From the human T2T-CHM13v2.0 reference genome, Homo sapiens, in the NCBI RefSeq assembly GCF_009914755.1, contig NC_060925.1: a DNA stretch of 64,000 nucleotides; one strand, 5' to 3'. Positions 39,039-56,200 of the stretch are shown here, one piece after another. The stretch's first letter is position 1, and each line of letters begins with the position of its first letter. The notes under the pieces are model-generated. The model was not told the origin of the DNA. It saw nothing but the letters and a program-made list of their open reading frames with translations, and did not search any database. The position numbers and the translations under genes are program-made.

Positions 39039-40160
39039 CTAGAAGAAAACCTAGGCATTACCATTCAGGACATAGGCATGGGCAAGGACTTCATGTCTAA
39101 AACACCAAAAGCAATGGCAACAAAAGCCAAAATTGACAAATGGGATCTAATTAAACTAAAGAGCTTCTGCACAGCAAAAGAAACTACCATCAGAGTGAAC
39201 AGGCAGCCTACAAAATGGGAGAAAATTTTCGCAACCTACTCATCTGACAAAGGGCTAATATCCAGAATCTACAATGAACTCAAACAAATTTACAAGAAAA
39301 AAACAACCCCATCAAAAAGTGGGCGAAGGACATGAACAGACACTTCTCAAAAGAAGACATTTATGCAGCCAAAAAACACATGAAACAATGCTCACCATCA
39401 CTGGCCATCAGAGAAATGCAAATCAAAACCACAGTGAGATAACATCTCACACCAGTTAGAATGGCAATCATTAAAAAGTCAGGAAACAACAGGTGCTGGA
39501 GAGGATGTGGAGAAATAGGAACACTTTTACACTGTTGGTGGGACTGTAAACTAGTTCAACCATTGTGGAAGTCAGTGTGGGGATTCCTCAGGGATCTAGA
39601 ACTAGAAATACCATTTGACCCAGCCATCCCATTACTGGGTATATACCCAAAGGACTATAAATCATGCTGCTATAAAGACACATGCACACGTATGTTTATT
39701 GCGGCACTATTCACAATAGCAAAGACTTGGAACCAACCCAAATGTCCAACAATGATAGACTGGATAAAGAAAATGTGGCACATATACACCATGGAATACT
39801 ATGCAGCCATAAAAAAATGATGAGTTCATGTCCTTTGTAGGGACATGGATGAAATTGGAAATCATCATTCTCAGTAAACTATCGCAAGGACAAAAAACCA
39901 AACACCGCATATTCTCACTCATAGGTGGGAATTGAACAATGAGAACACATGGACACAGGAAGGGGAACATCACACTCTGGGGACTGTTGTGGGGTGGGGG
40001 CCTGGGGGAGGGATAGCATTAGGAGATATACCTAATGCTAAATGACAAGTTAATGGGTGCAGCACACCAGCATGTCACATGTATACATATGTAATTAACT
40101 TGCACATTGTGCACATGTACCCTAAAACTTAAAGTATAATAATAATAAAATTAAAAAAAG
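39039..40160 (+). mobile_element. 5'-truncated L1PA (PA4-like), intron 16
   Basis: ORF2 C-terminal fragments, 3' UTR aggagatatacctaatgctaaatgac, A-rich tail. Confidence 0.95.
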
Positions 40161-40888
40161 AACAATAACTACCCTGTATTAAAATACATCAAAATGTTTA
40201 AATTAATGAGTTTATTATGATACTCATTATGTTGAAAAGTGACAAAGGGAAAAAAATGTCTTTAATTCTTTCTCTTTTTTGGGTTTCATTTGGAAAGTCT
40301 TGAGTCCCCACTTATGTCCTTACTTGTTGGAGTGTTTTACTTCATAACCATGTTCCTTACTTCCTGGTGTTTATCCTGTGATTCTTGTTTTCTCCTCCCC
40401 TGGGAACTGTTTCTCTGACTTCTTTTTGGTTCACTGTTATGAATTCTAATCTCTTTCTGACTTAAAGTATTCTAAAGTAGACCTGGGTTTCTCACATTCA
40501 TTATGTCTTTTTATTGTTTTTCTTAACATAGCCTTTCTATAATCAACAAATGTTCTTCAGTTCTTTGCAGCCTCTAATTATTTTCTACTCATCTGGCTTA
40601 CTTGAAAATAAAGATTTCTTTCTCTTGGAAAGAGGCATAATAAAACAGACTTGGCCCCTCAAATAAATCTTTCCTACTTTATGATTCATTTGCCTTTTGG
40701 GTTACATTTGTAACCAAATAATAAAAACTTCTTTGGAATAAGAGATTTTATACCATTTTCCATTATAAACTCCCCAGTACAGACATATTTATCTGTCTAG
40801 ATATTATTCTGGGAAGTATGTAGACTGGAGAGATCCTAAGAGGTAACAGCTTGCAGGTTACCATGTGGGGATTAAAATAGTACTTTGT

Positions 40889-41135
40889 CCAAGGTGGGCG
40901 GATTGCTTGAGCTCAGGAGTTTGAGGCCAGCCTGGGCAACATGGCAAAACCCCGTCTCTGTGAAAAATACAAAAAAATTAGCTAGGTGTGGTGGTGCACA
41001 CCTTTGGTCCTGGTTACGCAGGCGGCTGAGGTGGGAGGATCGCTTGTGCCAGTGAGGCAGAGGTTGCAGTGAGCGGAGATCGCACCACTATACTCCAGTC
41101 TGGGCTACAGAGTGAGATCCTGTCTCCAAAAACAA
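40889..41135 (+). mobile_element. 5'-truncated AluJ
   Basis: Alu body; TSD agtactttgt. Confidence 0.9.
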
Positions 41136-52575: not shown

Positions 52576-52680
52576 ATGGCAAGATTATTTTATCATAAAC
52601 CCCAGTTTGCCATTTTGGATGAATGCACAAGTGCAGTTAGTGTCGACGTGGAAGGCTACATTTATAGTCATTGTCGAAAG
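52576..52680 (+). CDS. ABCD3: ABCD3 exon 21 (105 nt) MARLFYHKPQFAILDECTSAVSVDVEGYIYSHCRK (Walker B, D-loop)
   Basis: ttcag| ... AAG|gtaagt; visible in ORF 52567..52779. Confidence 0.98.
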
Positions 52681-53245
52681 GTAAGTACGCAGGTGCTCAG
52701 TTTGAGGAGCCATGGCCTCCTACCTAGTGTAAACTATGTCCAAATCTGTCCAAAGAGAAGATTCCAGGTCACTAAGTAACAAAATTTCTACCAAAAGATT
52801 TCTTGTTTTAATAAAGATTTAAAACATATGAATAAAAGAAAAAGAATTATAAATACAGTTCTGTATATAATTCTCTTTATATATGGGAAATAGATTTAAA
52901 TATGTTGTTTTATATAAGTGAGATATAAAAGATATATATAAATGAGATACAAAAGATATCTCATTTATATATAAATGAGTTACAAAAGTTTTTAACTTTT
53001 ATGTTAAAAGATTTATTTATTTATTTTTTAATTTATTATTATTATACTTTAAGTTTTAGGGTACATGTGCAAAATGTGCAGGTTAGTTACATATGTATAC
53101 ATGTGCCATGCTGGTGCGCTGCACCCACTAACTCATCATCTAGCATTAGGTATATCTCCCAATGCTATCCCTCCCCCAGGCCCCCACCCCACAACAGTCC
53201 CCAGAGTGTGATGTTCCCCTTCCTGTGTCCATGTGTTCTCATTGT

Positions 53246-56200
53246 TCAATTCCCACCTATGAGTGAGAATATGCGGTGTTTAGTTTTTTGTTCTTGCGAA
53301 AGTTTACTGAGAATGATGATTTCCAATTTCATCCATGTCCCTACAAAGGACATGAACTCATCATTTTTTATGGCTGCATAGTATTCCATGGTGTATATGT
53401 GCCACATTTTCTTAATCCAGTCTATCTTTGTTGGACATTTGGGTTGGTTCCAAGTCTTTGCTATTGTGAATAATGCCGCAGTAAACATACGTGTGCATGT
53501 GTCTTTATAGCAGCATGATTTATAGTCCTTTGGGTATACACCCAGTAATGGGATGGCTGGGTCAAATGGTATTTCTAGTTCTAGATCCCTGAGGAATCGC
53601 CACACTGACTTCCACAATGGTTGAACTAGTTTACAGTCCCACCAACAGTGTAAAAGTGTTCCTGTTTCTCCACATCTTCTCCAGCACCTGTTGTTTCCTG
53701 ACTTTTTAATGATTGCCATTCTAACTGGTGTGAGATGTTATCTCACTGTGGTTTTGATTTGCATTTCTCTGATGGCCAGTGATGGTGAGCATTGTTTCAT
53801 GTGTTTTTTGGCTGCATAAATGTCTTCTTTTGAGAAGTGTCTGTTCATGTCCTTTGCCCACTTTTTGATGGGGTTGTTTGTTTTTTTCTTGTAAATTTGT
53901 TTGAGTTCATTGTAGATTCTGGATATTAGCCCTTTGTCAGATGAGTAGGTTGCGAAAATTTTCTCCCATTTTGTAGGCTGCCTGTTCACTCTGATGGTAG
54001 TTTCTTTTGCTGTGCAGAAGCTCTTTAGTTTAATTAGATCCCATTTGTCAATTTTGTCTTTTGTTGCCATTGCTTTTGGTGTTTTAGACATGAAGTCCTT
54101 GCCCATGCCTATGTCCTGAATGGTAATGCCTAGGTTTTCTCCTAGGGTTTTTATGGTTTTAGGTCTAACGTTTAAGTCTTTAATCCATCTTGAATTGATT
54201 TTTGTATAAGATGTAAGGAAGGGATCCAGTTTTAGCTTTCTACATATGGCTAGCCAGTTTTCCCAGCACCATTTATTAAATAGGGAATGCTTTCCCCATT
54301 GCTTGTTTTTCTCAGGTTTGTCAAAGATTAGATAGTTGTAGATATGCGGCGTTATTTCTGAGGGCTCTGTTCTGTTCCATTGATCTATATCTCTGTTTTG
54401 GTAACAGTACCATGCTGTTTTGGTTACTGTAGCCTTGTAGTATGGTTTGAAGTCAGGTAGTGTGATGCCTCCAGCTTTGTTCTTTTGGCTTAGGATTGAC
54501 TTGGCGATGCGTGCTCTTTTTTGGTTCCATATGAACTTTAAAGTAGTTTTTTCCAATTCTGTGAAGAAAGTCATTGGTAGCTTGATGGGGATGGCATTGA
54601 ATCTGTAAATTACCTTGGGCAGTATGGCCATTTTCACGATATTGATTCTTCCTACCCATGAGCATGGAATGTTCTTCCATTTGTTTGTATCCTCTTTTAT
54701 TTCCTTGAGCAGTGGTTTGTAGTTCTCCTTGAAGAGGTCCTTCACATCCCTTGTAAGTTGGATTCCTAGGTATTTTATTCTCTTTGAAGCAATTGTGAAT
54801 GGGAGTTCACTCGTGATTTGGCTGTTTGTTGTTGGTGTATAAGAATGCTTGTGATTTTTGTACATTGATTTTTGTATCCTGAGACTTTGCTGAAGTTGCT
54901 TATCAGCTTAAGGAAATTTTGGGCTGAGACAATGGGGTTTTCTAGATATACAATCATGTCATCTGCAAACAGGGACAATTTGACTTCCTCTTTTCCTAAT
55001 TGAATACCCTTTATTTCCTTGTCCTGCCTAATTGTCCTGGCCAGAACTTCCAACACTATGTTGAATAGGAGTGGTGAGAGAGGGCATCCCTGTCTTGTGC
55101 CAGTTTTCAAAGGGAATGCTTCCAGTTTTTGCCCATTCAGTATGATATTGGCTGTGGGTTTGTCATAGATAGCTCTTATTATTTTGAGATAGGTCCCATC
55201 AATACCTAATTTATTGAGAGTTTTTACCATGAATGGTTGTTGAATTTTGTCAAAGGCCTTTTCTGCATCTATTGAGATAATCATGTGGTTTTTGTCTTTG
55301 GTTCTGTTTATATGCTGGATTACATTTATTGATTTGCGTATATTGAACCAGCCTTTGCATCCCAGGGATGAAGCCCAGTTGATCATGGTGGATAAGCTTT
55401 TTGATGTGGTGCTGGATTCGGTTTGCGAGTATTTTATTGAGGATTTTTGCATCAATGTTCATCAAGGATATTGGTCTAAAATTCTCTTTTTTTGGTTGTG
55501 TCTCTGCCTGGCTTTGGTATCAGGATGATGCTGGCCTCATGAAATGAGTTAGGGAGGATCCCCTCTTTTTCTATTGACTGGAATAGTTTCCGAAGGAATG
55601 GTACCAGTTCCTCCTTGTACCTCTGGTAGAATTCGGCTGTGACTCCATCTGGTCCTGGACTCTTTTTGGTTGGTAAGCTATTGATTATTGCCACAATTTC
55701 AGCTCCTGTTATTGGTCTATTCAGAGATTCAACTTCTTCCTGGTTTAGTCTTGGGAGTGTGTATGTGTCGAGGAATTTATCCATTTCTTCTAGATTTTCT
55801 AGTTTATTTGCGTAGAGGTGTTTGTAGTATTCTCCGATGGTAGTTTGTATTTTTGTGGGATCGGTGGTGATAATCCCCTTTATCATTTTTTATTGTGTCT
55901 ATTTGATTCATCTCTCTTTTTTTCTTTATTAGTCTTGCTAGCAGTCTATCAATTTTGTTGATCCTTTCAAAAAACCAGCTCCTGGATTCATTAATTTTTT
56001 GAAGGGCTTTTTATGTCTCTATTTCCTTCAGTTCTGCTCTGATTTTAGTTATTTCTTGCCTTCTGCTAGCTTTTGAATGTGTTTTCTCTTGCTTTTCTAG
56101 TTCTTTTAATTGTGATGTTAGGGTGTCAATTTTGGATCTTTCCTGCTTTCTCCTGTGGGCATTTAGTGCTATAAATTTCCCTCTACACACTGCTTTGAAT

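What the first reader, a model, noticed from the sequence alone, without database searches (positions are those of the whole stretch)
39039..54140. Inverted L1s of different subfamilies share private mutations, including the same ORF2 stop: local gene conversion
Seen: the + L1 in intron 16 and the - L1 in intron 21 differ at 3' UTR diagnostics (aggagata..gctaaatga..ttaatggg versus gggagata..gctagatga..ttagtggg) yet share variants that depart from the L1PA consensus as I recall it: CAGCCT (39206/53978), GAAACAATG (39386/53794), ACAGTG (39434/53746) and TAC>TAA giving KTTVR* (39440-39442 / 53738-53740). A stop upstream of the ORF2 C-terminal cysteine-rich domain is unlikely to be inherited from an active source element. 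Inference: non-allelic gene conversion, or past inversion toggling, between inverted repeats about 13 kb apart that bracket exons 17-21.
Basis: partly seen in the sequence, partly recalled or inferred. Interest (0 to 1): 0.7.

Follow-up and report, generated by a model that had tools for sequence, protein, structure and literature searches.

The report
Neighbouring L1 copies swapped DNA patches
Three separately placed LINE-1 repeats inside the human ABCD3 gene share rare mutations in short patches, likely because DNA repair copied bits from one neighbour into another, a known and apparently common process rather than something special to this gene.

Summary
Observation confirmed. A (+, 39038-40158, intron 16) and B (-, 53021-58262, intron 21) belong to different L1PA classes. 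They share four rare markers, and no other exact-pattern match in the genome carries two of them. It has 9 exact matches against 3693 for the common form, and three of the 9 are A, B and an older L1, C, in intron 10. Sharing lies in patches: 39128-39502 (1 substitution plus a 4-base gap) and 39900-40020 (0 of 121). Best reading: two to four non-crossover gene conversions, likely C to B, then B to A. Inversion toggling alone is not supported, because the exchange is one-way and an inversion would flip exons 17-21, which hold the ATP-binding motifs. The case is ordinary: 7 of 7 control neighbour pairs elsewhere share extra rare alleles, and a chr2 trio shows three-way sharing too. Ape orthologues and reads could not be tested.

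The parts
39038..40158 (+). Element A: 5'-truncated L1, last ~1.1 kb (end of ORF2, 3' UTR, A-tail), intron 16; older young-L1PA class 'X' (L1PA3/4-like, name recalled)
   Evidence: class markers; tree; only a doubtful 7-bp target-site repeat
53021..58262 (-). Element B: 5.2-kb L1 lacking most of the 5' UTR, intron 21; class 'Y' (L1PA2/3-like, name recalled); ORF2 region broken into several frames, so a dead copy
   Evidence: (ORF1 domains, endonuclease, RT); no target-site duplication found
29543..30848 (+). Element C: older truncated L1 (class 'Z', L1PA5/6-like, name recalled) in intron 10, with a 10-bp target-site duplication; likely source of the CCT marker
39128..39502 (+). Shared patch 1 in A, outer bounds (inner bounds 39206-39442): G39206, C39386, G39434, stop 39440-39442; broken by a 4-base gap near 39300 and one CpG-type difference at 39325, so possibly two tracts
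   Evidence: (1 of 375 differ; 0 of 78 unbiased pairs as close)
53678..54056 (-). Shared patch 1 in B (coordinates mapped from pattern hits)
39900..40020 (+). Shared patch 2 in A, outer bounds (inner bounds 39911-40003): B-class allele at 39911 and CCT at 40001-40003; likely acceptor
   Evidence: (0 of 121 differ; 0 of 78 unbiased pairs as close)
53161..53281 (-). Shared patch 2 in B, likely donor to A; CCT at 53178-53180 lies in a stretch of at most 37 bp identical to C
30674..30727 (+). Stretch of C around CCT (30691-30693) identical to A over 54 bp and to B over 37 bp
44642..52680 (+). ABCD3 exons 17-21 between A and B: 459 nt, 153 codons, holding Walker A, ABC signature and Walker B; would be flipped by an A-B crossover
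   Evidence: hub annotation

Best explanation
Three L1 copies in ABCD3 share rare mutations in short patches, likely because each inserted on its own and break repair later copied short tracts from one neighbour into another without crossing over (non-allelic gene conversion). Shown: different classes outside the patches, near-identity and rare markers inside, no homology of the 3' flanks. Inferred steps: a break or stalled fork in one L1; strand invasion into the nearby inverted copy on the same or sister chromatid; synthesis-dependent annealing that leaves the gene order intact. Most economical history (inferred): (1) at most 37 bp with CCT from C into B, 22.5 kb away and inverted; (2) 93-121 bp from B into A, carrying the B-class base at 39911 and CCT; (3) one or two ORF2 tracts, 237-375 bp in all, between A and B, direction unknown, carrying four mutations including the stop. 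The stop arose after insertion in one dead copy and is neutral baggage. Crude age of the A-B transfers: under about 7 Myr.
For: Only A and B carry two or more of four markers genome-wide (lists from 9, 16, 17, 19). CCT 34-mer: 9 matches against 3693, 3 of 9 in ABCD3; shorter 28-mer: 45 matches, the only pairs within 120 kb being A, B, C. A and B keep opposite class alleles at 39707, 39889, 40021, 40041, 40053, 40064. Tree on non-patch columns puts B in the Y clade (SH-aLRT 98) without A; on patch columns A and B are 0.002 apart. At 39911, 18 of 18 X-class copies with G39889 have G, while A has B's base and B keeps it: one-way. Of the six other CCT 34-mer carriers, five are class Z like C and C groups with the three in the tree (98). 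3' flanks of A, B, C show no BLAST similarity. Control pairs 14-115 kb apart: 7 of 7 share 1-4 more rare non-CpG alleles at unselected columns against 273 of 2115 far pairs. Tract sizes match the 250-bp mean reported for human duplicates (10.1101/135152, abstract).
Against: Clumping of A-B differences is marginal. The AU test does not reject an A+B clade on non-patch columns (p 0.20). A+B support on patch columns is only 46, and its nesting among Y copies 81. Patch bounds and class labels were drawn after seeing the data, partly from the same columns. Direction of tract 2 rests on one site. C's other matches are weak: G39434 is in 7.6% of copies, the 4-base gap in 8 of the 45 other copies in which the motif could be read, A39766 in 5 of 68 mostly older copies; B and C share no rare allele in the 190 bp that A lacks. 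No clear target-site duplication for A or B. No ape orthologue, second human haplotype or read data were available.
Confidence: 0.88

Rival explanations
1. Inversion toggling: crossovers between A and B inverted exons 17-21 and later restored them, leaving conversion scars at the exchange points.
For: A and B are inverted, 97.3% identical over 1125 columns, inside the range reported for LINE-LINE recombination (PMC4344489, passages). An L1PA7-flanked inversion with adjoining conversion is described in PMC5829575 (passages).
Against: Crossovers swap alleles; here both copies hold the same alleles and 39911 moved one way. The inverted state would remove Walker A, signature and Walker B, a likely null. 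It does not explain CCT in C. ABCD3 is not named in the searchable supplements of PMC9675761 or PMC12350158 (gene-name search only, coordinate tables would be missed).
Confidence: 0.04
2. Assembly or polishing artefact: reads from one L1 overwrote bases in the other.
For: Could not be tested; the copies are about 97% alike and 13 kb apart.
Against: Patches are interleaved with copy-specific alleles, include a third copy 8% diverged, and keep two differences inside patch 1. The same pattern recurs at 7 control pairs and a chr2 trio, which also come from this assembly.
Confidence: 0.03
3. Common descent: A and B come from one minor source lineage, or one is a daughter or duplicate of the other.
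For: Overall A-B distance (23 of 1080) is low: 2 of 78 unbiased pairs are as close. AU test does not reject a clade.
Against: No third copy has two markers; the G+stop double count (15) is near the independent expectation (9.3); A and B hold opposite class alleles at six sites; no 3' flank homology; A is too short to be B's parent.
Confidence: 0.02
4. RNA- or cDNA-templated conversion: L1 sequence in ABCD3 pre-mRNA or a local transcript served as the repair template, with or without reverse transcription.
For: All three copies lie in one transcription unit; cDNA-mediated conversion is described for yeast Ty and Tf2 (PMC6598467, part 2 read). The sequence result would look the same.
Against: No direct evidence; DNA-DNA conversion suffices; control pairs occur in both orientations; a distance effect is reported genome-wide (10.64898/2026.08.26.747289, passages).
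Confidence: 0.03

Closest known systems
Non-allelic gene conversion between neighbouring Alu elements (Aleshin and Zhi 2010, seen only as cited in PMC6598467 and PMC8230782)
   Same: Shared non-diagnostic mutations between nearby copies; mosaic subfamily markers; old-to-young transfer also reported for Alu (PMC8230782, passages).
   Different: L1 rather than Alu; distances of 13-22 kb here and up to 115 kb in controls, against about 10 kb cited for Alu; three copies involved.
Conversion between L1PA3 LINEs seen in long reads (PMC5829575, Fig. 4S as described in text)
   Same: Same repeat family, same outcome.
   Different: There a read-level polymorphic event; here events written into the assembly, with frequency in people unknown.
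Genome-wide ectopic gene conversion by template length and distance (10.64898/2026.08.26.747289) and NAGC in duplicates (10.1101/135152)
   Same: Short tracts, decay with distance, strong signal at 10-100 kb.
   Different: The 2026 preprint's main text has no hit for transposable, interspersed, Alu, retrotranspos, L1PA or ABCD3 (supplements closed); the other covers gene duplicates.
LINE-LINE non-allelic homologous recombination (PMC4344489; PMC9675761 by listing only)
   Same: A and B meet the screen of 1 kb and 92% identity for an inversion substrate.
   Different: No crossover product is seen here; gene order is intact.

Membership tests
Non-allelic gene conversion between repeats | Donor and acceptor are distinct loci of separate origin | tested here: met
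   Opposite class alleles, tree, no 3' flank homology; AU test not significant
Non-allelic gene conversion between repeats | Shared derived alleles confined to tracts, beyond chance or common descent | tested here: met
   clumping alone marginal
Non-allelic gene conversion between repeats | Non-reciprocal transfer | tested here: met
   Both copies hold the alleles; site 39911, one site only
Non-allelic gene conversion between repeats | No exchange of flanks | tested here: met
   Exons 17-21 on + strand with AG/GT ends and an open frame
Non-allelic gene conversion between repeats | Pre-conversion state seen in outgroup orthologues or other haplotypes | not testable with these tools
   No ape or second human genome held
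Recurrent inversion between inverted repeats | Inverted repeats of sufficient length and identity | tested here: met
   1125 columns at 97.3%
Recurrent inversion between inverted repeats | Reciprocal swap of alleles between the repeats | tested here: not met
   No site where A has the B-class allele and B the A-class allele
Recurrent inversion between inverted repeats | Inverted allele observed in a population | not testable with these tools
   Only gene-name searches of two supplements and one text search, all without a relevant hit
Minor L1 subfamily | Marker combination present in unlinked copies | tested here: not met
Named L1PA subfamilies (Dfam) | Match to curated consensus | not testable with these tools
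   No Dfam; classes X, Y, Z were defined from fetched copies, names are recalled

The most novel reading that the evidence does not exclude
Primate L1 copies within about 100 kb form local conversion networks across the genome, reaching some ten times further than the range cited for Alu and crossing subfamily lines, so that several percent of rare L1 alleles (7 surplus copies among 100 listed carriers of this stop) were copied from a neighbour. The ABCD3 trio is one node, and its inverted pair would still be a live substrate for a rare copy-neutral inversion that removes the ATP-binding domain and escapes exome tests.
Probability: 0.45. Interest if true: 0.55.

Novelty: new member of a known kind. 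Interest (0 to 1): 0.32.

Why it matters
For ABCD3 itself there is no sign of a functional effect: the patches lie in dead intronic repeats. The case shows cleanly that a rare, inactivating L1 mutation can be shared without common descent, which can mislead L1 dating, subfamily calls and variant mapping. It also marks A and B as a pair that has paired up before; a crossover would invert exons 17-21 and likely give a null allele invisible to exome and copy-number tests. The wider lead is that rare-allele sharing gives a simple single-genome assay for the reach and rate of L1-L1 conversion.

Tried and rejected
Minor subfamily: rejected. A as daughter of B, or segmental duplication: rejected. Run-length clumping as proof: only marginal; 2 of 78 unbiased pairs have identical runs of 197 bp or more. 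AU test for separate ancestry: not significant. The 4-base gap shared by A and C: too common to count. G39434 in C: 7.6% background, weak. B-C sharing in the 190 bp beyond A: none. A fourth L1 about 51 kb upstream of the window (L096, 350 bp): shares no rare allele with A, B or C. Target-site duplications: clear only for C. A chr8 pair with CCT and a related allele aligned poorly (106 differences in 312 columns) and was dropped; it, a chr3 pair 290 kb apart and L061/L062 fell outside the filters. Six unselected pairs 135-257 kb apart share no rare allele. One search was in the wrong frame. Literature: nine searches listed no paper on these ABCD3 L1s and none devoted to distance-dependent L1-L1 conversion; most subscription papers are not held, and Aleshin and Zhi 2010 could not be read.
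Full report
Anatomy. The window holds three young or middle-aged L1 pieces in ABCD3: C (+, 29543-30848, intron 10, 91.6% to B), A (+, 39038-40158, intron 16, 97.3% to B) and B (-, 53021-58262, intron 21). B carries ORF1, endonuclease and reverse-transcriptase domains, but its ORF2 region is split over several frames, so it is a dead copy regardless of the shared stop. 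C has a 10-bp target-site duplication; A has only a doubtful 7-bp one and none was found for B. The 3' flanks of the three show no similarity.

Observation. Exact-pattern counts over the whole assembly: G39206 77 against 4608; C39386 20; at 39434/39442 the four haplotypes number 12103, 983, 108 and 15, giving 7.6% for G, 0.93% for the stop and 9.3 doubles expected by independent mutation. So the markers recur by chance and define no subfamily. The other 13 double carriers are 6-21% diverged from A and lack the other markers where covered.

Different origins outside the patches. I sorted 67 fetched copies by 3' markers into X (20, A-like), Y (28, B-like) and Z (19, C-like) (subfamily names L1PA3/4, L1PA2/3 and L1PA5/6 are recalled, no Dfam here). 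A has X alleles and B has Y alleles at 39707, 39889, 40021, 40041, 40053 and 40064. Differences by segment: 1 of 375 in 39128-39502 (plus a 4-base gap that the count ignores), 8 of 264 in 39503-39766, 0 of 113, 3 of 19, 0 of 121 in 39900-40020 and 10 of 110 in 40021-40130; none of 78 unbiased pairs is as close in either patch. On a 42-row tree of non-patch columns B falls in the Y clade (98) and A outside it; on patch columns they are 0.002 apart. Against this: the AU test does not reject an A+B clade on non-patch columns (p 0.20), clumping of differences is marginal (p 0.04-0.18), and segments and labels were chosen after seeing the data.

Direction and order (inferred). At 39911 all 18 X copies with G39889 have G, and 29 of 31 Y copies have A; A has G39889 but A39911. 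That points to B as donor of patch 2, at least 39911-40003. CCT belongs with older elements: five of the six other 34-mer carriers are class Z, C groups with the three of them in the tree (98, on columns that include CCT), and a one-step neighbour allele has 19 matches. B matches C over only 37 bp around CCT and A over 54 bp. The fewest events are C to B, then B to A, both between inverted copies; C to A first needs one more event and is not excluded. Patch 1 has no class marker, so its direction is open; the gap near 39300 and the CpG difference at 39325 may separate two tracts. With 0-2 later differences in 496 bp and an assumed rate of 1e-9 per site per year, the transfers are younger than about 4-7 Myr; this is biased young because bounds were set by differences.

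Mechanism. Established repair biology (my knowledge) gives strand invasion into a nearby homologous copy and non-crossover resolution. A crossover between A and B would invert exons 17-21: 459 nt, in frame, holding [15 protein letters not shown] and ILDE, so a likely null. Toggling would swap alleles, not duplicate them, and no swapped site was seen. An assembly artefact could not be tested but would have to write interleaved patches into three copies.

How special is it? Not very. The rare-allele lists hold other close pairs. Seven such pairs, 14-115 kb apart, chosen for one shared allele or as top hits, each share 1-4 further rare non-CpG alleles at columns not used to choose them; the background is 273 of 2115 far pairs with one or more and 27 with two or more. 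Of 16 near pairs in that call, the other nine scored zero: six unselected pairs at 135-257 kb and the three ABCD3 pairs, whose markers were the excluded columns. 3' flanks were compared for six of the seven and show no shared flank (the chrX pair has only a 50-bp match at the L1 end; the chr18 pair's flank was not fetched). The chr10 and chr19 pairs are of different classes, like A and B, and a chr2 trio within 36 kb shares the stop and an allele seen in 0 of 71 others. Among 100 listed of 123 stop carriers, 7 pairs outside ABCD3 lie within 70 kb against about 1.0 expected, none at 70-150 kb; the null comes from 100 copies on chr1p, three of the pairs are one trio, and with a threefold larger null no bin is significant.

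What is known. Conversion between neighbouring Alus within about 10 kb is cited in PMC6598467 (parts 1-2 of 4 read) and PMC8230782 (passages); the original was not available. PMC5829575 describes a conversion between L1PA3 LINEs (passages). 10.1101/135152 gives a 250-bp mean tract (abstract). 10.64898/2026.08.26.747289 reports genome-wide ectopic conversion with decay steepest from 100 kb to 10 Mb (abstract and passages; supplements closed and may list L1 pairs). PMC4344489 treats LINE pairs of 1 kb and 92% as recombination substrates (passages). PMC13192797 screens full-length L1s for recombinants (passages). I found no paper on these ABCD3 elements in nine searches and no ABCD3 mention in two supplement sets.

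Verdict. Real and correctly read as local gene conversion, with a third partner added; a clear new instance of a known process with no shown effect on the gene. Interest 0.32. The bolder lead is the reach and frequency of L1-L1 neighbour conversion, which needs a proper genome-wide test.

Noticed in passing
window 52860-53019 and 58337-58538: B sits between two 82-83% AT stretches that resemble each other directly and inverted (up to 86% over 115 bp) and fold into hairpins; a 20-bp perfect palindrome lies at 52960-52979, about 40 bp from B's tail. Possibly a fragile site near the converted 3' end; untested, and longer palindromes occur elsewhere in the window.
   Followed up: partly
L104-L106 (chr2 39.98-40.02 Mb): Three same-strand L1s within 36 kb, of two classes, share the ORF2 stop and further alleles absent from about 70 other copies: a second three-way network.
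   Followed up: partly
L011/L012 (chr4 78.75/78.78 Mb): Inverted L1 pair 37 kb apart, 97.8% identical over 2.3 kb with a 387-bp identical run and no shared 3' flank: a stronger homogenised pair than A/B.
   Followed up: partly
L051/L052 (chr3 23.06/23.35 Mb): Inverted older L1s 290 kb apart share CCT and several alleles seen in 0-1 of about 80 copies; conversion at long range or one source element.
   Followed up: partly
L029/L030 (chr22 and chr14 short arms): 3 differences in 1080 columns and 11 shared rare alleles; likely an acrocentric duplication.
   Followed up: no
window 2717-3314, 6076-6287, 36694-37189, 42511-42594: Four old L1 fragments (68-73% to B); the one at 36694-37189 ends about 40 bp before exon 16.
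   Followed up: no
window 49843-50438: Tandem or nested Alu pieces with a 114-bp period.
   Followed up: no
window 39031-39037 and about 40191-40197: A possible 7-bp target-site repeat of A lies about 30 bp past the A-tail, after a TT/AAAA-type site; could be chance or a short 3' extension.
   Followed up: partly
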